Source: Eledone cirrhosa
Lineage: Eukaryota
Reading direction: 5' to 3'
Assembly: GCA_964016885.1 (NCBI GenBank)
Contig: OZ024743.1
Location: 97,526,001 to 97,590,000 of the forward strand
DNA length: 64,000 nucleotides
The position numbers and the translations under genes are program-made. Within the stretch, counting starts at the first letter, position 1. Every line of letters starts with the position of its first letter. Positions 6,014 through 64,000 of the stretch are shown piece after piece. Under the pieces are notes generated by a model. The model did not search any database. It saw only the letters and a list, made by a program, of their open reading frames with translations, and was not told the DNA's origin.

Positions 6014-6157
6014 AATAATTAATTCTGTACTCGCACCACCAACTACACAAATGAAGACGGGTGAATTGCATTAAGTCGGGTGCTCTTCATAATATTACAT
6101 CGATGTTGACCATACGGAATGACCAGCTCTATCCAGTGGTGAACCAACAAACCTAAA
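6014..6157 (+). mobile_element. Solo copy of the tail of the 7.8-10.9 kb element, in (TA)n
   Basis: Diverged reverse complement of 7806-7950, e.g. ttgaccatacggaatgacca..ctatccagtggtgaacca. Confidence 0.8.
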
Positions 6158-7140: not shown

Positions 7141-7717
7141 CAGCTTGTTGGGGCGACGGGCTCGCGAATCCTGATGTGATGTCACTGGTGCCACGCTTTG
7201 GGGAAGATCTCCCCTCCACTTCTGGTACCCTAACCCAAAGTTTACAAGCTTTTATAGAAAACTTTAATATTACTCCTTCTTTGACTCCATTTTCATATAT
7301 TTGATATATCCTTATACGTTGTTATGTCATATATTCGTATACTGACAATGCATACATCCAATGTGTGTATATTCAACGCATGTGTGTTGAGACAACGTGA
7401 GAAATAAACAGAATCACGTGAGAGAGGAAATGTGAGAGTTGACTGTGAAAGGTGTGTTCCATGTAGACAAAGAGAATTGGAGATAGAAAGTATATATATA
7501 TATATATATGTATATGTATATATAAATGTATATATATATATATATATATATATAAATGTATATATATATATATATGTATATATGTATATATATATATATA
7601 CATATATACATACAAACATATATTCAGATATGTATATGTATATATATGTGTATATATAATATATTTATATATACATAAACACAACACACACACATATATA
7701 TATATATATATACATAA

Positions 7718-7780
<63 letters not shown>

Positions 7781-7805
7781 ACCATATATATATATATATA
7801 TATAT

Positions 7806-10800
7806 CTTTAGGTTTGGTGGTTCACCACTGGATAGAATTGGTCATTCCGTATGGTCAATCTTGGTGTAATATTGTGGAGAGTACTCAACGTAGTGCAGTT
7901 CACCCGTCTTCGTTTGTTTAGTTGGTGGTGCGAATACTGAGTTAATTATAAATAAAAATAACAGGAGGCTGGACTTGTGTAAATCCTTGAAAGGTTTATT
8001 ATACTCTGATCATTTCAATGACCGGGTTCCATATGAATCCGGTGATATCATCAGGTATTGCAATATAACAAAGGAATATGTAAAAAACTATGGGTCCGAA
8101 AAATCAGAGACAAAGACAAAGAGGACGACTGACCAACTAGCTGCCTTCACCTCGGCCAGTCGCCCTCAAAGTGATGGCAACTGAATCTACAAATGACCAT
8201 CTGGTGAGGGGGCGAAGGCTTATAATGAACTACCACCTCTCCGTCAAGGAAAAAGGAGAAGAAAGAAGAAAAAAAGAAGAAAGAAGTCAGCGTAAGGGTC
8301 ACACTACATTCATGCTAGAAAATTCCGCGAAAAATGCTACTCCAAAGAAATTATATTTAACAAAGGCATATATAATGGGTGTCTGTATGGTCTAATGTGT
8401 GAACCGAAAATTGGAACGTTAAACTTATGTTACGAGTTATAGGATGACATTAAAGTAAAAAATATTAAATTGCAAAATGATAAATTGAAAAATAAATTAT
8501 TAGAAAATTAAAGGTTAAGGTAGCGAGATTTATTTAATGAACTTACAGAGAGAGTCTTATATGAAAAAAATAATCTCGATAAGATATCAGGATGGGATAT
8601 AGAGTAAAGATTTCCGATTGTGAGTCCCAGCCAGCACCCCACAACCATGAGTCAGCCAGTTTCGAGTGGTATCGTCTAGCGAAAGAAATGGAAACTAATT
8701 TTTCCATGTACTCTAGGAACGTAGCTACCTTAGGCCCCGGGAGTGCTAGCGGGAAGTCTACAATTTCGACAGGCCATCGTCTTTATCAAACGAATATTAT
8801 TAAATCAGACATGAAGAGTTTATTTACGTGCCAGTAGAGGCATGATACAGTTAATAGTTATGCCTAAACCTGGAGTGTATAGGTATAAGCATAATATGGA
8901 GGCCAAAACAGGCGGCGCGGTGGGACCGGGGCAAAGCAACCCGCTCCGAGTAATTTCGTTTACCGAAAGAGGGTAAATTTATTTTTCCGCGCAGTCAAAG
9001 AAGGCTGAACTTTCCGAGTGCCCAGCGCGCAGCCGGGAAAAGCCACCACATAAGTCGAAGGTAGCAACCCAATGAAAAATGCAAATAGACCATAATTATT
9101 TTAAAGTCCCAGTTAGTCCAGGTTATAAGTAGTCTGGTTCTTTGGTGGGTAGGGGTCTATGAAAGGTGCATAATGACCTAAGTAAGGAAAGTTACAAAAA
9201 AATAATAAAAGCAGGATACAAATATAAAATACAAATATGAAGATAAAATACAAAGATAAAGAATACATTCATAAAAATACATTAATAAATTAATAAATAA
9301 ATAAATTAATAAACAAAATTAATAAAAGTAAATAACTAGGGATGTAGAAAGACGGAAGTATATAAGAACGTATCGGAGGAATCACAGTGTAGGGGAAATA
9401 CAAAACTTTATACTCGGTTCCACATGTTACCATTCCATCTCTTCCATCCTCTATATCTATATGTACAAACTGTATCTTACTACAACTTGATCTATTTTGT
9501 ATTTCCCCTACACTGTGATTCCTCCGATACGTTCTTATATACGTCCGTCTTTCTATATCCCTAGTTATTTACTTTTATTAATTTTGTTTATTAATTTATT
9601 AATTTATTAATTTATTAATGTATTTTTATGAATGTATTCTTTATCTTTGTATTTTATCTTTATATTTGTATTTTATATTTGTATCCTGCTTATATTATTT
9701 TTTTGTAACTTTCCTTACCCAGGTCATTATGCACCTTTCATAGCCCCCTACCCACCAAAGAACCACACTACTTATAACCTGGACTAACTGGAACTTTAAA
9801 ATAATTATGGTCTATTTGCACTTTTCATTGGGTTGCTACCTTCGACTTATGTGGTGGCTTTTCCCGGCTGCGCGCTGGGCACTCGGAAAGTTCAGCCTTC
9901 CTTGAGTGCTTGGAAAAATAAATTTACACTCTTTCGGTAAACGAAATTACTCGGAGCGGGTTGCTTTGCCCCGGTCCCACCGCGCCGCCTGTTTTAGCCG
10001 CCATATTATGCTTATACCTATAAACTCCAGGTTTAGGCATAACTATTAGCTGTATCATGCCTCTACTGGCACGTAAATAAACCCCTCATGTGTGATTTAA
10101 TAATATTCGTTTGATATAGACGATGGCCTGTCGAAATTGTAGACTTCCCGCTAGCACCCCCGGGGCCTAAGTTAGCTACGTTCCTAAAGTACTCGGAAAA
10201 ATTAATTTCCATTTCTTTCTCTAGACCATACCACTCGAAACTGGCTGACTCATAGTTGCGGGGTGCTGGCTGGGACTCACAATCGGAAATCTTTACTCTA
10301 TATCCCATCGAGATTGATTTTTTCATATAAGATTCTCTCTGTAAGTCCATTAAATAAATCTCGCTACCTTAACCTTTAATTTTCTAATAATTTATTTTTC
10401 AATTTATTATTTTGCAATTTAATATTTTTTTAATTTAATTTAATGTCAACCTATAACTCGTAACATAAGTTTAACGTTCCATTTTCGGTTCACACATTAG
10501 ACTATACAGACACCCATTATATATGCCTTTGTTAAATATAGATTCTTTGGAGTAGCATTTTTCACGACCTTTTCTAGCATGAATGTAGTGTGACCCTAAA
10601 GCGGACTTCTTTCTTCCTTTTTTTGCTTCTTTCTTCCCCTTTTTCCTTGGCGGAGAGGTGCTAGTGCATTATAAGCCTTCGCCCCCTCACCAGATGGTCA
10701 TTAGTAGATTCAGTTGCCATCACTTTGAGGGCGACTGGCCGAGGTGAAGGCAGCTAGTTGGTCAGTCGTCCTCTTTGTCTTTGTCTCTAATTTTTCGGAC

Positions 10801-10939
10801 CAATGGTTTTTTACATATTCCTTTGTTATATTGCAATACCTGATGATATCACCGGATTCATATGGAACCCGGTCATTGAAATGATCATAGTATAATAAAC
10901 CTTTCAAGGATTTACACCAGTCCAGCCTCCTGTTATTTT
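7806..10939. mobile_element. Giant inverted-repeat element: tail 7806-7954, arms 7955-9405 and 9495-10939, 89-bp spacer
   Basis: The arms are reverse complements with scattered substitutions and small indels (the same spurious ORFs appear on opposite strands). Flanked by (TA)n. A hammerhead-like motif lies near the outer end of each arm. Confidence 0.9.
10834..10878 (+). ncRNA. Degenerate type I hammerhead-like motif (mirror copy at 8016-8060, minus strand)
   Basis: caatac-CTGATGA-tatcaccggattcatat-GGAA-CCCG-GTC-attg. The GAAA box and stem I are imperfect. Confidence 0.45.
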
Positions 10940-11462
10940 CTTTATATATATATGTAGCACATTGTGACGTGACCAAATGCAACAAGCAGAGGAAGACTCT
11001 GGGCCAGCAAGTATAGGGAAGAAATGAATGTTATTCGCTGCAAATATGTTATAATGTACGTAACTGTTGCAATCTCATTGTCATATCACGACTGACATCA
11101 CTAGAGAAATCGAGAAATATAGAAGTAAAGGAAATCTATATAGTGTTGGTTGATTGGTGATAGGAAAATCATTTTGTGTGAATGCTATATAGTGTATGCT
11201 ACATTCAGCAACTTTATCTGAAAAATATTTACATTTCAACAACAATATGTGTGCACGAAATATTAGGCTACGCAAAGGAAATTACATAGCACGCAATCTA
11301 CATAAGAATATTGGTGCCACGGTTTATTAATTCGTACAAACTACAACATATTCTTCACACATACACAAACACTTACATACATTCATACTTACATTCAAAT
11401 ATACATACATACTTACATACATACTCACACACACACACACACACACACAGACACACACACAG

Positions 11463-14252: not shown

Positions 14253-14541
14253 CAGGGTTGGACTTAGACCCTATGGAGCTGGGGGCATTTCAGGTTTAGG
14301 AGGCCCCGCTCATACACAAGAAATTAGAATACCAGCAAACATCTCAATTTTACATATCAAATTTAGCTTGGTGCAAGTAATTGGAATTGAAATACAGGTA
14401 TTAAATTCAAAAGCTCTAACCATCCTAAAACTAAAAGGTCCAGCTGAGGGCATAAACAAATTGTTGCGACCGTCGCTGTTGGGGGCCGCACCGCTGGGAT
14501 CACGATGCAATTACACCATTTAATTCATTAAATCCGGCCCT
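14253..14541. mobile_element. Probable hAT-type MITE remnant
   Basis: Ends cagggttggacttag and taaatccggccct fit a CAGGGCCGGATTTA-type TIR, with internal ggggcc/ggcccc subterminal motifs. No TSD recognised. Confidence 0.5.
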
Positions 14542-14642
14542 TTGCAGCATAGAGTTACGGCCCTTTATGATCTGAGTTCAAATCCCACCGAGGGTAATTT
14601 GACTTTCATCCTTACAGGGACGATAAAATAAAGTAGCAGTCA
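14542..14642 (+). mobile_element. SINE internal fragment
   Basis: gcagcatagagttacggccctttatgatctgagttcaaatcccaccgagg...gataaaataaagtagcagt. Confidence 0.8.
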
Positions 14643-15391
14643 AGGATTTAATAACACCACCCCCCCCACCCCCCCAAAAAAAAATTACTCGGAAACCATT
14701 ATTTAGTATTAACAACATGAACTTACACTGCAATATTTAGTTTTAGGATGGTTAGAGCTTATGCATTTAATACCTATATATTTTCAATTTCAATTACTTG
14801 CAGTAAGCTAAATTTCATACGTAAAGTTGCAGTTTAAGTCGTAGGTGTAGTAATGTTAATTGCCTTTCCTTTAAGATACAGTGTCAAGGTGAATTATGCT
14901 TAAGCGTTTGGAGTAGAATAATCTGACTTACAAATTGCCTGGCAACTAAAGGAATCCCTAAACTGAAATGCAAAGGAGAATTTAAATGAATGAACAAAAT
15001 AATTTCATTCAAAAACATTTAATTAGTTGATATAACTTTTGGCAAAAAGACTAGACTTCTTTCCTTTTAATAACTTCATTGTAGAGATGAAATTCTCATC
15101 CATATTAATTTTGATCGGTTTTATTTCGAGTCATCATCAAATCGTTTCGTGATATGTAGATAATATGAATCTCGATATAAATCGTATATAAACAGGGATT
15201 ACTAATGTTCTTATCGGATATTTCAGCCATATGTATAATAAAGGAATGTACAATTATGAATCTGTGCACGAAGGTATTCAAATAGTGTTATCGAAGTATT
15301 CGGAATAGTATTAATATTACATTTATTGCTATCTAGACATTTGTTGCTCTGCTTTTAATATATGTATGTTGTGGTTTGGGTACTATAAAGA

Positions 15392-15827: not shown

Positions 15828-16009
15828 AACGAACGATGTGTGGTAAGGAACCAGATGGACCATAACGCAGAGAGTACTGAATATTTAGGGTAGTAGAGTG
15901 GGTAATAGGAAAATGTTCAAGACCCCGACGGCAGAGCTCAAGCCGTTTCGACGAAACAACCGTCGAAACGGCTTGAGCTCTGCCGTCGGGGTCTTGAACA
16001 TTTTCCTAT
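15828..16009 (-). mobile_element. Hairpin-plus-tail element, copy 1 (perfect 49-bp arms 15905-15953 and 15961-16009)
   Basis: Flanked by (TA)n. Arms contain the 3' half of a hammerhead: GAAA-CGGC-ttgagctct-GCCG-TC. Confidence 0.9.
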
Positions 16010-20238: not shown

Positions 20239-20427
20239 AACGAAGGAAATGTGGTAAGGAACCAGATGGACCATAACGCACCAAAGTACTCGATACTTAG
20301 GGTAGTAGAGTGGGTAATAGGAACAAGTATGACCCCGGCGGCAGAGCTCAAGCCGTTTCGACGGCTAATTCTGGACTGAATTAGCCGTCGAAACGGCTTG
20401 AGCGCTGCCGTCGGAGTCATACTTGTT

Positions 20428-20432
<5 letters not shown>
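20239..20432 (-). mobile_element. Hairpin-plus-tail element, copy 2
   Basis: Same family as 15828-16009. Arms 20317-20371 and 20378-20432, in (TA)n. Confidence 0.9.
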
Positions 20433-35396: not shown

Positions 35397-37182
35397 AGTA
35401 TGCCGAAAGAAGTCCCGTGGTACAAAAGACCAGTTACTTATTGATAAGATGGTAATGAGCAATTGCAAGAGGAGACACACTGGTCTTGCCATGGGATGGA
35501 TAGATTAAAAAAAGTCATTCGACATGGTACCTCATTCTTGGATAACCAAAAGCCTAGAGATCTTCAAGGTAGCAGATAGCATCAGACAGTTGTTGAGCAA
35601 AAGTATGAAGTCCTGGGAAACAGAGTTAACATCGGGTGGAGAATCCTTGGGAGGCGTGAAGATCAAGAGAGGTATCTTCCAGGGAGATAGTTTGTCCCTT
35701 CTGTTGTTTGTCCTTGCCCTGATACCCCCGACCATTATACTGCGAAAAGTGAGAGCAGGATACAAGTTGGGAAAAGGAGAGCTTACCATCAACCACTTCC
35801 TCTTCATGGACAATCTTAAACTCTTTGGGAAGAGTGAGAAGGAGTTGGATGTACTTGTTGACACTCTCCGTATTTTCAGCAATGATATATGTATGCAATT
35901 TGGTATTAATAAGTGTGGAGTCCTTGTGATGAAGAGGGGTAAATTGAGCAGAAGCAACGGAATCCAAGTACCAACAAGAGAGATGATAAAGGAAATTGAC
36001 ACTGAAGAAGGATACAAGTATTTGGGTGTTCTGGAGGCTGATGACATCAAGAACAAAAAAATGAAGGAATTGATAAGATCTGAATACATTCGGAGAGTAA
36101 GGAGCGTATTAAAATCACATCTGAACAGTAGGAATGCCATAAGTGCAGAGAATTCCCGAGCTGTGTCTATTATTAGGTACAGTGCGGGAATTCTGAGATG
36201 GAATGTTGCTGAACAAAAAGAAATGGATAGGAAGACTAGGAAGCTATTGACTATCTACAACATGTTCCACAAAAGGAGTGATATTCAGATGAAGAAAAAC
36301 AACCTGCACAAATACGTGAGCGACAGTAGGGAGCCAATGCTCAGAATTGTACTGACGGAGAAGACAATAGACCAGGGGATGTTCAAGAAGGAAATAACAA
36401 CAAGGAGAAAGAGCAACCTTCATGAAAAATCCCTTCATAGTACCTTCTTTGAAAAAATTGAATTTAGTGATCCACAGACCCACAGACATGGAACTGGTTG
36501 AAAAGAGGAGACCTTAAAAAGGCTACAGAAGGAATGCTAATGGCTGTGGAGAGAGAGGAGACTGTGACTCACATTGTATCCGAGTGTAAACACCTAGCCC
36601 AGACTCACTATAAAGGCTGGAGACATGATGTGATGGGCAGAGTGATCCACTGGCACCTATGCAAAGTAAACAATTTACCACATTCTGAGAAGTGGTATGA
36701 GCATAAGCCAGAGTCGGTGATAGAAAACGATCGGGTGAAGGTGCTATGGGATTTTAGGATACAGACGGACGAGAAATTAGAACACAATAGACCTGACATG
36801 GTGGTTTTGGACAAGGGAAAAAGATCGTGGCTGGTTGTGGATGTAGCCTGCCCATTCGAGACGAGAGTGCAAGAAAAGGAGAGGAAGGAAATTAACCGAT
36901 ACCAGGACGTAAAGTGAGAGGTAAAAAGGATTTGGAACTGCCATGATGTCAAGGTAGTCCCGATTGTCATAGGCGCACTAGGTACTATCTCAAAGAGTTT
37001 CCAAGGATGGTTAAAGAAGATTAGTCCAGCCCCGCTTTTTGGAACACTTCAAAAGGCATGCTTGCTGGGAACAGCAAGAACCCTCCGATACGTCCTGAAT
37101 ATCTTAGGCTGCAGGTAGTGGCTTGATATACATTTCAACAAACTTTTCAGTTAACTAACATCAATGACTAAGACTCAAAGAG
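35397..37182 (+). mobile_element. R4/Dong family B, 5'-truncated (RT and RLE endonuclease, decayed)
   Basis: GIFQGDSLS, FMDNLKLF (catalytic D to N), YKYLG, ETVTHIVSEC, HNRPDMVV..D, PIVIGALG. Bounded by (TAA)n. Has internal deletions relative to the 63-kb copy. Confidence 0.92.
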
Positions 37183-38147: not shown

Positions 38148-41100
38148 CCTCGTGACCAAGAAATACCGGGATGGCGGCCGGCGAGGAATAGCCGTGTCTC
38201 TAGGGAAGGACGACCCCTCTAGTCTTGGTTGACACTCGTCCTAGAAGTGGTAACACGAAATGATTACCCCTTGGCGGATAAGGATAAAACGCGACAAAAT
38301 AAAGTAAATGTCAAATGATAAAATCTCATACCGGATCGGCCGTCACCCGGGTCAAAAAGGGCCGCGTCCCTCAGAGAGGAACCAGACTGGGGTCGAAAAA
38401 TCAGCTAATGGTTCAAACCTTCCCATCACTACGGAGCTGGAGACCTCCCATAACCGGAATACTCCTACTGTTGGCCCTCCATGCTCATCACCAAGAAATC
38501 CAAAGAAAAAAAGAGAAAAATGGTCAAAGGAAGATAATAAAGAAGTCCTTGAGGCCTTCTACACTGCTATGTACTACCTACCCATCAAATAGATCGAATA
38601 CAGAACAGACATATATTAACTGAAAAAAGAAACATCCCGAAAACAGAGGCTATATTGACAGTAACAAACTAGCCAATATACGAAGAAATATTGTAAAATA
38701 AAGTTACTAACTGATATAGAAATTGATCAGATCAAGCTATCAGCACAAAGTCAGCGAAGGGAAAATGAAACATGTGTCAGTGAAAACGAGGTAAATTGTA
38801 ACACTTCGAATCCCATGGTTGGGGTGGAATCACTGACAACAGAACAAATTAAAGAAAGGATCGAAAAAGTGGAGGGACTGCATGCTAACTATGAAACTCA
38901 AAATGAAAACAATGAGATCGTAAATGATAAAGAAATGAATGAGAATGAACTTGCCAACTTGAAGGATGAAATTATGATCGAATGGATGAAAATGAAAGAA
39001 TCTGACATGGGGGAACGAGACACTCTCCCTAAGATCCAGAACTCCAAACAGAACCAAAAGATAATACACAAGACTAACATAATTCTCAAAAACATTATCA
39101 TCACAAACAAACTAAACATTACTGATTTAAATCATCGTTATTATGCATCGGCTAAAGTCACCACTGACTTATGTGGAGTGAAAATGCAAAAACAAAGGAA
39201 TTCCCACAAGAAATCTACTTGGCAAGAAAACATCAATCGCCAAATAAACCTTCTCCGATCTGACATAGAAATTTTGACAAACTATAAGGTAGGTGAACAT
39301 GTTAAACAAACTAAACTTAGAAAATTGAAAAGAAAGTACAGTATAAAATCAACAAGTGACATAGACATGCTGATAGAAATAATCAAGCAAACAGTGTCGG
39401 CCAAAGCTGCTCGTATAAGGCGCTTTGAAAAACGATCTAGATTCTATAAGGACAATATGTTTAAAAACAACCAAAGAAACTTCTACAGAAAAATTGGTAA
39501 GTCAACAATAACTGCCAAATCAATACCACCCAAGGAGGAAGTTCAAGAATTCTGGGAAATGATCTGGGCCAAAGAGAAAGTTCATAATATACATGCCCCA
39601 TGGATAGACAGACAAATGAAAGATACAGCTCACCTTGTAGAACAAATATGGGAAAATATAACAGTTGAACAGTTGCGTTTGGCTCTTAGAAAAACCAGCA
39701 AATGCAAATCCCCAGAAAAAGACAAAATACAAAAGTTTTGGATAAATGCCTTCACAGAGTCTCATGAGCTGTTAGCCCAACTTTACAATGAAATAGTTAA
39801 GGAGCCAGAAAAGATACCATCATGGCTAATTAACGGCATTACATTCCTGCTTCCGTAGAATGATGAGACAAACAATCCCAAAAATTACAGACCGATAACT
39901 TCCTTGACCACAATGTATAAAATTTTAACATCAGTCCTAACTGAATATACATATGACCACCTGATAACAAATGACCTATTTCCCAATGAGCAGAAAGGGT
40001 GTAAACGAGGCTCATATGGCTGTAAAGATCAGCTTTTAGTTAACAAAATGATACTGGAAGATTGATATAATAGACACAAAAATCTATCAAATGCTTGGAT
40101 AGATTATAAAAAAGCATTCGATAGTTTGCCACACAGTTGGATTGAAAAATGTTTAGAGATTTTCAAAATATCTCCCGTTGTCAGGAGGTTTTTGTCATTC
40201 AGTATGAAGACATGGAAAACGACACTCCTTTTGAATAGTGAAACAAAATCACTGGAAGCTGGAGAAGGTAATATTAATTGTGGAATTTTTCAGGGTGACT
40301 CTTTATCACCGCTTTTATTCTGCATCGCACTTATACCATTAAGTAAAATGCTCAATGAAACAAAACATAGATATAAAGTCTATGACAAAACCATTAATCA
40401 CTTGTTCTACATGGATGACCTGAAACTATTTGCAAAAAATGATGAACAATTGCAAGGGCTATTATCCACTGTGGAGCAGTTCAATGATGACATTAAAATG
40501 GAGTTTGGACTAGATAAATGCGCCAAAGCAACGTTCACCATAGGAAAGCTGCTGAAAAGTTCAGACATTAATCTTGATCGAGGGAATGTGATAAGAGAAC
40601 TTGATCAAGAGCAAACTTACAAATATCTGGGTGTTTGTGAAGGAGACGGAATCAAGCACTCGACAATAAGGGAAAGGGTAAGGAAGGAATGTTACCGCAG
40701 AGTAAGAGCAATCTTAAGAACGGAATTGAATGCAAGGAATAGGATCGATGCCATAAACACGCTTGCCATACCAGTAGTAACCTACAGTTACAATGTCATC
40801 AACTCGTCAAGCACAGAGATCCGTAGGCTCGATACAAAAATTCGAAAATTCTTAACCATGCGCAGAATGCATCACCCTAAGGCAGATACAGATAGAATAT
40901 ATCTCCCTAGGAAATAAGGAGGACATTGCGTTGAAAACTGCAACAATTGGATTATCTACATATCTAAGGGAATCACATGACAGGATGATCAAACTCGTTT
41001 TGAAACACGAAAGCATCAAAAGAACATACTCCATTACAAAAGATGCACAAAGATACAATAATGGACTACAAATTTCAGAAGTCCCATTTACTGCTGAAAT

Positions 41101-42050
41101 GGAAAACACAGAAAAAGCAAAGCAGGTAAAAGTAACTGCAAAGAAAGAACTGCTACAGAAACTGGCTAAGAAATGGTAAGAAAAGCCTCTGATGTTGACA
41201 AAACTTTAACCCATCAGTGGTTGGCATCCTCTGGACTGAAATCGGAAACTAAAGGACTGATTATATCAGCACAAGATCAGAGTCTGCCAACAAAAAATTA
41301 CCAACCCAACATAATAAAAAATGGATGCAGCCTATTATGCCGTGTATGTAAAAAACAACCAGAGACCATTGACTATATAATTTCAATGTGCAGTCCTATA
41401 GCTCCAACCGAATACCTAAACAGGCATGACAAAGCTGCACAATACATACATTGGATAATGTGTAAGCATTTTGACCTGCCCCATCAAAAGAATTGGTGGG
41501 AGCATCAACCACCTCCCATACTTGAAAAATATCACATCTCAATCTTGTGGAACTTTAGCATCCAAACAGACCGAAAAATAGATGCAAATAGACCTGATAT
41601 AATACTGAAGGACTTTCAAAAGAGGGTATGCCTGCTAATTGATATGTCCGTTCCAATAGACAAGAATGTATCTATAAAAACATTTGAAAAATTGAGCAAG
41701 TATAAGGACCTGGAGATAGACATTGGAAAAATGTGGAAATTGAGAACTAAAACAATACCAGTGGTTGTAGGCGCTCTAGGAATGATACCTAAGGGGTCTA
41801 ATGATTATTTATCGCAAATCCCAGGAAACCCGCGTATAGGAGAAATACAAAAGATAGTACTAATGGGAACTGCCCATATACTATGGAAGATTCTGTCAAT
41901 ATAAGTACATCACAAGTCTAAACACCTAAAGATGCATGTGTGTGTATGTATGTTCTTTCTTGAACATGGCGGACCTTGTTGTCTCTTGAGGTCACTGGTT
42001 GTGACTTGGTGATAACTCGTATGAACATAAAGCAAGATAAATGCAGCTGT
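38148..42050 (+). mobile_element. R4/Dong family A, near-full-length non-LTR retrotransposon
   Basis: One interrupted ORF from 38308 to 41904: N-terminal KWSKEDN motif, RT (NYRPIT, QKG, WIDYKKAFDS, GIFQGDSLSPLLF, YMDDLKLF), CRVC..ET knuckle, NRPD..D..K..KY restriction-like endonuclease. Ends in taataataa. Confidence 0.95.
38308..41904 (+). pseudogene. Disrupted RT-RLE polyprotein of the Dong element (about 1200 codons)
   Basis: ORF pieces at 38308, 38815, 40126 and 41173 share a frame and are separated by premature stops. The 40931 piece is frameshifted. Confidence 0.9.
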
Positions 42051-53162: not shown

Positions 53163-53341
53163 AACAAAGGAATTGTGGTAAGGAACCAGATGGACCATAA
53201 CGCACCAGAGTACTCAATACTTAGGGTAGTAGAGTGGGAAATAGGAAAAAGTATGACCCCGATGGCAGAGCTGAAGCCGTTTCGACGTCCAGAAATAGCC
53301 GTTGAAACGGCTTGAGCTCTGCCGTCGGGGTCAAACTTTTT

Positions 53342-53346
<5 letters not shown>
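53163..53346 (-). mobile_element. Hairpin-plus-tail element, copy 3
   Basis: Same family as the 15.8 and 20.2 kb copies, in (TA)n. Confidence 0.9.
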
Positions 53347-58383: not shown

Positions 58384-58437
<54 letters not shown>

Positions 58438-58443
<6 letters not shown>

Positions 58444-58877
58444 TTAATAAATGGAAACTATATTTATAAAACCATATTTATTTTATTATACATATTTCAA
58501 GGGCAACCAAGGCAAATTAGGGTGCACTTTCATCAGATAAAATACAGATTTGCTTTATAAATAAATATTGCCATACCCGGGAAAAAGACAACCTTAACGG
58601 TTGGAGCTTCTTGGATTGCTCCAACCGTTAAGGTTGTCTTTTTCCCGGGTATGTCAATATTTATTTATAAAGCAAATCTGTATTTTATCTGATGAAAGTG
58701 CACCCTAATTTGCCTTGGTTGCCCTTGAAATATGTATAATAAAATAAATATGGTTTTATAAATATAGTTTCCATTTATTAATATATTGTGTATTTACTCC
58801 ACTAAACTGTTGAGTGCTTTATATGAGTTATAAAAATGTTTAAGCTTGATGAATCCCAACAAATTAAATATAACCTC
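58438..58877 (+). mobile_element. Fold-back element: 170-bp arms (58438-58607 and 58618-58787), 10-nt loop, 90-bp tail
   Basis: I see one mismatch between the arms. Pure (TA)n on both sides. Each arm carries a hammerhead. Confidence 0.92.
58681..58746 (+). ncRNA. Minimal type I hammerhead ribozyme (mirror copy on minus strand at about 58479-58544)
   Basis: tattttat-CTGATGA-aagtgcacc..ggttgccctt-GAAA-tatgta-TA-ataaaata. Confidence 0.85.
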
Positions 58878-63088: not shown

Positions 63089-63115
63089 ATATATATATAT
63101 ATATAGTAATAATAA

Positions 63116-63176
<61 letters not shown>
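62925..63176. repeat. (TA)n followed by (TAA)n
   Basis: Seen directly; the (TAA)n part is the target of the adjacent Dong copy. Confidence 0.95.
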
Positions 63177-64000
63177 CACCTCCTCTTCATGGACGATCTT
63201 AAGCTCTTCGGAAAGAGTGAGAAGGAGTTGGATGTGCTTGTTGACACTGTCCGTATTTTCAGCAATGATATATGTGTGCAGTTTGGTATTAGTAAGTGTG
63301 GAGTCATTGTGATGAGGAGGGGTAAGTTGAGCAGAAGTAACGGAATCCAGATACCAACAGGTGAGAGGATAAAGGAAATTGACTCTGAGGAAGGATACAA
63401 GTATTTGGGCGTTCTGGAGGCTGATGGCATAAAGAACAAAAAAATGAAGGAATTGTTAAGAACTGAATACATTCAGAGAGTAAGGAACATATTGAAGTCA
63501 CATCTAAACAGCAGAAATGCCATAAGCGCAGTAAATTCCCGAGCTGTGTCTATTATTAGGTACAGTGCGGGAATTCTGAGATGGAATGTTGCTGAACAAA
63601 AAGAAATGGATAGGAAGACTAAGAAGCTATTGACTATCTACAACATGTTCCACAAGAGGAGTGATGTCGATAGACTCTACCTAAGGAGATCTGAGGGTGG
63701 AAGAGGTCTTATCAGCATAGAGGACTGTGTTCAGATGGAGAAAAACAACCTACACAAATACGTGACTGATAGTAAGGAGCCAATGCTCAGAACTGTACTG
63801 AAGGAGGGGACAATAGGCCAGGGGATGTCCAAGGAGTAAATAATATCAAGGAGAAAGAGCAGCCTTCAGGAAAAATCCCTTCATAGTACCTTCTTTGAGA
63901 ACACTGAATTTAGAGACCCACAGACATGGAACTAGTTGAGAAGAGGAGACCTTAAAAAGGCTACAGAAGGAATGTTAATGGCTGCGCAGGAGCAGGCCCA
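63174..64000 (+). mobile_element. R4/Dong family B, 5'-truncated, runs off the window
   Basis: Starts immediately after (TAA)n with [13 protein letters not shown], then YKYLG and RLYLRRSEGGRGL. Confidence 0.93.

What the first reader, a model, noticed from the sequence alone, without database searches (positions are those of the whole stretch)
7806..10939. 3-kb inverted repeat (two arms of about 1.45 kb, 89-bp spacer) with no coding capacity
Seen: the arms have diverged by scattered substitutions and indels, which argues against a simple read artefact. A 150-bp tail lies on the left only, both ends meet (TA)n, a hammerhead-like motif sits 60-100 bp from each outer end, and there is a CpG-rich patch at about 8900-9070 / 9830-10000. 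Inference: a long non-autonomous member of the same system. Such closely spaced long inverted repeats are usually unstable. If transcribed in an intron it would form about 1.4 kb of dsRNA, a likely substrate for ADAR editing (extensive in coleoids) or Dicer.
Basis: partly seen in the sequence, partly recalled or inferred. Interest (0 to 1): 0.7.

Follow-up and report, generated by a model that had tools for sequence, protein, structure and literature searches.

The report
Giant ribozyme retroelement, two-armed insertion
This 3-kb mirror repeat is two back-to-back copies of a common, unusually long (about 2 kb) non-coding repeat with a hammerhead-ribozyme-like motif, likely pasted in by a Penelope-type retrotransposon enzyme copying one RNA from both ends of a DNA break; some related copies elsewhere carry A-to-G scars that likely record RNA editing of such hairpins.

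Summary
The inverted repeat is real: arms 7955-9405 and 9495-10939, about 95.6% alike, with a 141-bp tail on the left only. It is not single-copy DNA. Both arms are 5'-truncated copies of a non-coding 1945-bp unit; the 'spacer' is simply more of the right arm. The head-to-head layout with one tail is the family norm and is the published footprint of Penelope-like elements (PLEs). The arms share 11 dispersed variants, so they likely come from one template. A young Hydra-type PLE in the genome has the same hammerhead variant and end hairpin, making its enzyme the likely mover; no sequence parent was found. The window copy shows no editing, and no RNA data were available. Eight related loci, one of them in this family, carry one-strand A>G hypermutation with ADAR context. 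The marks are near-identical in both arms and absent from tails (0 of 130 A). The scan noted the two-arm, hairpin and ADAR features before, on other DNA of this genome. What is added here is size: twice the longest published retrozyme unit found. Verdict: new variant of a known kind.

The parts
7491..7805 (.). TA-rich microsatellite, left target flank
   Evidence: TRF period 2, 158 copies
7806..7947 (-). 141-bp tail; 3' end of left arm at end site A
   Evidence: Many copies start at unit position 1, others at 142
7883..7942 (-). Bulged hairpin motif (ACTC ... TT-GAGT) beginning a few nt after end site B; a twin follows site A in read-through copies; predicted RT-positioning element
   Evidence: weak fold alone (whole-tail z -0.05); similar motif after the hammerhead of a coding Hydra-type family
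7948..9405 (-). Left arm, unit positions 142-1571, 5'-truncated
8001..8058 (-). Type I hammerhead-like motif, left copy; U16.1 changed to G at 8006, so predicted inactive
8644..8721 (-). Conserved internal module, second copy (left arm)
   Evidence: nhmmer
8928..9004 (-). Conserved CpG-rich module (GAGT/ACTC, GGAAA/TTTCC, TTTCG/CGAAA palindromes) shared with sister families; role unexplained
9406..9494 (+). 'Spacer': extra 5' sequence of the right arm (unit 1571-1667); joint at 9405/9406 with at most 2 shared bases
9495..10939 (+). Right arm, tail-less, ends at site B (unit 142)
9896..9972 (+). Conserved CpG-rich module (right arm)
10179..10256 (+). Conserved internal module, second copy (right arm)
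10836..10893 (+). Type I hammerhead-like motif, right copy: CUGAUGA and GAAA cores, palindromic loop III, predicted cut after 10889; U and U flank stem II instead of G10.1-C11.1
   Evidence: compared with PMC4209133 passages
10940..10954 (.). Short (TA)n, right target flank
6015..6157 (+). Separate tail-only fragment of a sister subfamily in (TA)n, 86% alike and inverted to the left tail

Best explanation
The repeat is one insertion of a non-coding, 1945-bp hammerhead-bearing retroelement made of two 5'-truncated copies set head to head, likely written by a borrowed Penelope-like (probably Hydra-clade) reverse transcriptase that primed from both DNA ends of a cut in (TA)n on the same RNA. Inferred steps: the enzyme binds two bulged hairpins on the sense RNA and starts a few bases before each, at site A (gives the tail) and site B 141 nt further in (no tail). 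The two cDNAs stop at different points (unit 1571 and 1667) and are joined with little or no homology, which leaves a family-derived spacer. The template was longer than a cleaved monomer: a re-ligated circle (about 50%) or an uncleaved multimer. Read-through of such loci would fold into about 1.4 kb of duplex. In relatives such RNA was likely edited by ADAR and occasionally copied back into the genome. For this locus transcription is untested.
For: Shown: (1) High-copy family: 99 matches among 40 scored of 4239 candidates; 5027 exact hits to a hammerhead 22-mer, 0 control; 145 exact hits to an interior 20-mer. (2) Tandem period 1945 bp. All 39 newly fetched loci with the exact tail/post-tail joint continue into non-coding unit sequence, none into an ORF. 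(3) Geometry: 20 of 20 close pairs among the first 100 hits are head to head; one tailed plus one tail-less end in 17 of 20 of these pairs and in 17 of 23 two-orientation loci of 38 family loci. The longer arm is the tailed one in 8 and the tail-less one in 9 of those 17 (read), as two independent primings predict. (4) The window arms share 11 derived variants spread over unit 260-1456, 7 seen in no other locus, against 0-4 shared with any of 43 other long copies; private changes are 28 and 29. (5) A>G-hypermutated relatives carry the same marks in both arms: 14 of 14 (L189) and 20 of 21 (L190), against at most about half between loci. The marks are on the hammerhead-sense strand. The T>C control pattern gave 1 hit, not hypermutated, against 5. 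Context in L081: edited after U 26/29, A 20/39, C 4/14, G 1/14, matching ADAR's depletion of upstream G (PMC5625713 passages). Tail A edited 0 of 130, upstream A 52 of 150 in three tailed arms. (6) A young coding family (758-codon frame, DKT and CxCX5C motifs) has a U/U-flanked hammerhead followed by the same hairpin motif in 10 of 29 loci; one locus joins its ORF to sister family B (L130). Literature: inverted 5'-truncated copy plus one-sided tail, (TA)n targeting by Hydra (PMC8557442); both strands cut and extended, two internal start sites bounding the tail (PMC11167929).
Against: No autonomous element sharing the unit's 3' sequence was found: 0 of 30 GIY-YIG loci, 0 of 29 other Hydra-758 and 0 of 24 other Neptune-type loci, 0 of 30 loci of a third family. 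A second chimera joins family B to a Neptune-type ORF instead (L127), so the mover is not pinned down. The hammerhead lacks the conserved G10.1-C11.1 pair, has no Rfam match and was not assayed. The tail is 141 bp against 30-40 bp in print. Some loci break the rule: 2 of 20 pairs have two tail-less ends and 15 of 38 family loci show one orientation only. L069's long arm pair shares only 1 derived variant in 929 columns. Edited loci were found with patterns aimed upstream of site B, and intact tails could be selected for RT binding, so the unedited tail does not prove a fold-back source. L081 is edited in its interior, not near its 3' end. Family A as a whole shows no A>G bias (11.4 vs 10.2 T>C per 1000; 0 of 65 copies flagged).
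Confidence: 0.82

Rival explanations
1. Same family, but the inverted arm arises by self-priming (fold-back) of one cDNA or of an antisense template, as proposed for rotifer Penelope, with later trimming of one end.
For: Also predicts identical marks in both arms. Proposed in PMC3846280 (passages). Some turns lie in the stem II palindrome (ends near unit 230-235 in 5 of 55 read-through copies).
Against: Here the spacer is continuous with the tail-less arm, so a fold-back of that strand could not supply the tail. The longer arm is tailed in 8 and tail-less in 9 of 17 loci. Editing polarity points to a sense template.
Confidence: 0.1
2. A single insertion was later duplicated in inverted form at DNA level, or two independent insertions were homogenised by gene conversion.
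For: The arms are only slightly closer to each other (4.2%) than to the nearest other copies (4.2-4.9%); conversion in inverted repeats is well known (recalled).
Against: The right end stops exactly at the family-wide site B; it contains unit sequence (1571-1667) that the left arm lacks; shared variants are dispersed, not in a tract; the same layout recurs genome-wide.
Confidence: 0.04
3. Assembly artefact: two haplotypes or paralogous copies joined in inverted form.
For: No served contig bridges 9405/9406.
Against: The same runs also show zero depth on the single-copy flank 11015-11330, so the hole says nothing. Both ends and the tail follow family rules, the arms share private variants, and 4.4% divergence is symmetric.
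Confidence: 0.02
4. A non-autonomous DNA transposon (foldback or MITE type) with 1.45-kb terminal inverted repeats and TA target duplication.
For: Long inverted arms, TA flanks, no ORF.
Against: The whole 3.1-kb structure was seen at no other locus; copies have variable 5' truncations, tandem read-through, asymmetric ends and RNA-editing-type scars.
Confidence: 0.02

Closest known systems
Insertions of endonuclease-bearing Penelope-like elements, Hydra clade in particular (Craig et al. 2021, PMC8557442; Frangieh et al. 2024, PMC11167929)
   Same: Inverted 5'-truncated copy, tail at one end only, hammerhead near the 3' end, 5' truncation, partial tandems, (TA)n targets, two fixed 3' ends
   Different: No ORF; tail 141 bp rather than 30-40 bp; both arms 1.45 kb; no sequence parent found
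Animal non-LTR retrozymes (Cervera and de la Pena 2020, PMC7229834; Li et al. 2026, bioRxiv 10.64898/2026.07.22.740005)
   Same: Non-coding, type I hammerhead with palindromic loop III once per unit, seamless head-to-tail copies, proposed PLE dependence
Non-autonomous Chlamys elements such as MRC1 (PMC8557442, passage)
   Same: Non-autonomous PLE derivatives with pLTRs and head-to-tail copies
   Different: Those generally match an autonomous family at the 3' end, and most Chlamys lack canonical hammerheads
L1 twin priming (recalled, not read)
   Same: Both DNA ends prime cDNA on one RNA, giving an inversion joined by microhomology
   Different: Here both primings are at fixed sites near the same 3' region, so the arms are near-full mirror copies

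Membership tests
PLE-type insertion (non-autonomous) | Inverted 5'-truncated copy next to the main copy | tested here: met
PLE-type insertion (non-autonomous) | Tail extension at one end only (30-40 bp in print) | tested here: met
   One-sided in 17 of 20 pairs, but 141 bp long
PLE-type insertion (non-autonomous) | Hammerhead motif near the 3' end | tested here: met
   Core boxes, stem I and palindromic loop III conserved across copies; variant at 10.1/11.1; no Rfam hit
PLE-type insertion (non-autonomous) | Microsatellite target, (TA)n | tested here: met
   Flanks listed
Autonomous PLE | ORF with PLE RT and GIY-YIG endonuclease | tested here: not met
   Longest stop-free frame 95 codons; no Pfam hit over cut-off
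Derivative of a Hydra-clade PLE | 3' sequence shared with an autonomous family | tested here: not met
   No BLAST similarity in 113 coding-PLE loci other than the two chimeras; search not exhaustive
Derivative of a Hydra-clade PLE | Shared cis-architecture (hammerhead variant, hairpin motif after the end sites) | tested here: met
Non-LTR retrozyme | Non-coding tandem unit with one type I hammerhead per unit | tested here: met
   Period 1945 bp; L009 and L204 exceed two units
Non-LTR retrozyme | Short monomer (170-400 nt; up to 972 bp) | tested here: not met
   1945 bp
Non-LTR retrozyme | Self-cleavage of the hammerhead | not testable with these tools
   Needs an in vitro assay
Non-LTR retrozyme | Abundant linear and circular monomer RNA | not testable with these tools
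   No RNA holder listed; 36 of 55 read-through copies pass the predicted cut site a second time, which fits a circle or an uncleaved multimer
Foldback/MITE DNA transposon | Fixed element with symmetric terminal inverted repeats repeated across loci | tested here: not met
   Joints differ at every locus; ends asymmetric

The most novel reading that the evidence does not exclude
A class of giant (about 2 kb) non-coding ribozyme RNAs, probably circles, parasitises Hydra-type Penelope enzymes through twin hairpins. Its two-armed insertions create long hairpin loci whose transcripts are ADAR-hyperedited and can be written back into heritable DNA, a loop in which one RNA molecule templates both arms and the enzyme can switch between parasite RNA and different autonomous PLE mRNAs.
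Probability: 0.4. Interest if true: 0.72.

Novelty: new variant of a known kind. Interest (0 to 1): 0.52.

Why it matters
How PLEs make their inverted, one-tailed insertions is still open (PMC8557442, PMC11167929). This family gives genomic tests: both arms carry the same molecule-like editing marks, on the sense strand, which argues against the antisense self-priming model. It also extends retrozyme-like parasites to about 2 kb, beyond the period cap of the latest survey, so such families may be missed elsewhere. It suggests a steady source of long dsRNA substrates for ADAR and a rare route for RNA edits into germline DNA. The window locus itself is an old, unedited passenger.

Tried and rejected
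Rfam: no hit at gathering score; only microsatellite noise at E<=5. Coding remnant: none. Parent search: PF01541 loci, Neptune-type, Hydra-758 and a third RWK-bearing family show no shared 3' sequence; 39 tail/post-tail loci lead to no ORF. RNA: no RNA holder listed. Read laying: the served contigs cover only repeat sequence and miss both the joint and the single-copy flank, so they are uninformative. ADAR bias in the window arms and in 65 family A copies: absent. Apparent compensatory changes in the CpG module seen in L081 were rejected as A>G hypermutation; the remaining stems are nearly invariant, so RNA structure versus DNA palindrome is undecided and no covariation count was run. Pattern: 6 of 7 hits were single changes. 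No strand control was run for the patterns. End points at unit 570 are alignment breaks, not true ends. Host gene: none recognised; the window's RVT_1 hits at 35.5 and 40 kb belong to other retroelements. Literature searches listed no paper on a kilobase-size retrozyme, on twin priming in Penelope, or on ADAR-edited genomic PLE copies; this is a limited open-access library, and supplements of PMC8557442 (family lists, hammerhead files) were not opened and may already hold related families.

Full report
Observation. The inverted repeat is as described. A gapped alignment gives 1380 matches, 63 substitutions and 5 indels between 7948-9405 and 9495-10945; the arms are 89 nt apart. Bases 7806-7947 have no partner on the right. 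Both ends meet (TA)n. No frame in the family majority sequence exceeds 95 codons without a stop, and 4 of 4 arm frames tested have no Pfam hit over cut-off.

What it is. One arm matches a dispersed family: 99 matches among 40 scored of 4239 candidates, 84-97% alike. Copies begin at unit position 1 or about 142 and end at scattered points. Tandem copies give a period of 1945 bp. Against that unit, the left arm is positions 1-1571 and the right arm is 142-1667 in reverse, so the spacer is part of the right arm. A hammerhead 22-mer has 5027 exact hits, control 0, shared with sister families that diverge upstream of unit position about 300. An interior 20-mer has 145 hits. This is the gradient of 5' truncation expected of a retroelement. 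Among the first 100 listed hammerhead hits, all 20 pairs closer than 3.5 kb are head to head; 17 of these 20 have one tailed and one tail-less end. Of 38 best-hit loci, 23 have both orientations, 17 with that layout, and 15 have one orientation. Among the first 100 interior hits only two loci, one being this window, have both arms matching that far, so this is one of the longest hairpins in the family.

Hammerhead. On the sense strand the motif has stem I, CUGAUGA, a long stem II, GAAA, palindromic loop III and UA at the cut site. Stem II is flanked by U and U, not the conserved G10.1-C11.1 reported for PLE hammerheads (PMC4209133, passages). Rfam does not find it. The left copy has U16.1 changed to G and is predicted dead. 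Activity is untested.

Mechanism. PLE insertions often carry an inverted 5'-truncated copy and a 30-40-bp tail at one end, and Hydra-clade elements insert into (TA)n (PMC8557442, passages and section 11). A purified PLE protein cuts and extends both target strands and starts at two internal RNA sites that bound the tail (PMC11167929, parts 1-2 of 4). The family fits: two fixed ends, each a few bases before a bulged hairpin of the form RCTC...TT-GAGY (lead from e1-8837782). The window arms share 11 derived variants spread along the unit, 7 seen in no other locus, against 0-4 with any of 43 other long copies, and then carry 28 and 29 private changes. That fits one template and one date. Not every locus agrees: L069's long pair shares 1 variant. 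The tailed arm is longer in 8 and the tail-less arm in 9 of 17 loci, which suits two independent primings better than the fold-back model of PMC3846280 (passages). Of 55 read-through copies 36 pass the predicted cut site again and two exceed two units, so the template was a circle or an uncleaved multimer; these data do not separate the two.

The mover. No coding element shares the unit's 3' sequence among 30 GIY-YIG loci, 24 Neptune-type, 29 Hydra-type and 30 further loci. A young family with a 758-codon frame, DKT and CxCX5C motifs (RWR in place of RWK) has a U/U-flanked hammerhead followed by the same hairpin motif in 10 of 29 loci. Two of 60 loci sampled by the hammerhead pattern join sister family B to a coding PLE in the same sense: L130 to that Hydra-type family and L127 to a Neptune-type family. 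These may be template switches or nested insertions. Hydra-type RT is my best guess (about 65%).

dsRNA and ADAR. The arms could pair over about 1.4 kb, with 30 perfect runs of 21 bp or more. No RNA holder was listed and no host exon was recognised, so nothing is shown for this locus. The window arms have 1 and 2 private A>G changes; none of 65 family A copies was flagged. One sister copy, L081, has 51 A>G among 61 changes in 341 comparable columns of its 5' part and none in 704 columns of its 3' part, with ADAR-like context (PMC5625713 passages). Targeted patterns found more: 5 hits at 3 loci and 7 hits at 6 loci; the T>C control for one search gave 1 hit, not hypermutated. In all, 8 distinct loci are hypermutated (L081, L189, L190, L191 weakly, L193, L194, L195, and L196 with its near-identical twin L197); L193 is family A, with 17 A>G among 26 changes. 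Two-armed cases share their marks: 14 of 14 and 20 of 21, against at most about half between loci. In three tailed arms 0 of 130 tail A and 52 of 150 upstream A are changed, as expected if the RNA was edited as the stem of a hairpin locus like this one; ascertainment and selection for intact hairpins are caveats. Such copies are rare, a handful against thousands.

Artefact check. Served contigs do not bridge the joint, but they also miss the single-copy flank, so this is no evidence either way. The family-wide ends and shared private variants make a misjoin unlikely.

Comparison and novelty. It works like a non-LTR retrozyme moved by PLE enzymes, a link argued in PMC7229834 (passages) and bioRxiv 10.64898/2026.07.22.740005 (part 1 of 5 and passages). 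It is not an autonomous PLE. Earlier notes of this scan report the two-arm layout, twin hairpins, edited copies and circles for other, mostly 310-470-bp families in this genome; they are leads, not support, and a look-up by this sequence found nothing. Seven paper searches listed no report of a kilobase-size retrozyme or of ADAR-marked genomic PLE copies; supplements were not opened.

Verdict. A real, old, two-armed insertion of an unusually long non-coding hammerhead retroelement: a new variant of a known kind. Interest 0.52.

Noticed in passing
L081 (G000:C1:27332954-27335450), about 1061-1885: Family B copy with dense sense-strand A>G hypermutation in its interior 830 nt and none in its 3' 750 nt or short arm; may record a switch from unedited to edited RNA, or an interior duplex.
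   Followed up: partly
L127 438-4506 with L131: One two-ended structure whose left arm starts as non-coding family B and continues into a young Neptune-type ORF; the right arm is the Neptune-type 3' end with its own hammerhead.
   Followed up: partly
L130 1550-4085: Hydra-type ORF and the start of its 3' UTR joined to 5'-truncated family B ending at site B.
   Followed up: partly
window 8928-9004, 8644-8721 and mirrors; families B-D: A 78-bp module of three short palindromes occurs twice per unit and is the best-conserved interior piece between sister families; promoter or RNA three-way junction, unexplained. Absent from the coding PLE loci tested.
   Followed up: partly
L114, L120, L124; L117, L128; L091: At least three sister non-coding families (about 70% alike inside, 84-87% at the 3' end); family B looks younger (about 1% spread) and has a 506-bp internal repeat.
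   Followed up: partly
Three young coding PLE families with many intact frames (about 1278, 758 and 781 codons, 96-100% alike); the 758-codon family has a long microsatellite-like 3' region.
   Followed up: no
window 6015-6157: Tail-only fragment between the two end sites, in (TA)n, inverted to the element's tail 1.65 kb away.
   Followed up: partly
window 58429-58796; 14345-14829; 15905-16009, 20317-20432, 53241-53346: Other short fold-back repeats beside (TA)n, possibly insertions of other PLE-type families.
   Followed up: no
window 35509-36917, 38665-41904, 63090-63984: Fragments of other RT-encoding retroelements (RVT_1 hits at 35.5 and 40 kb).
   Followed up: no
window arms: Private changes lean to G>A on the top strand in both arms (7+7) over C>T (2+4); small numbers, not tested.
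   Followed up: no
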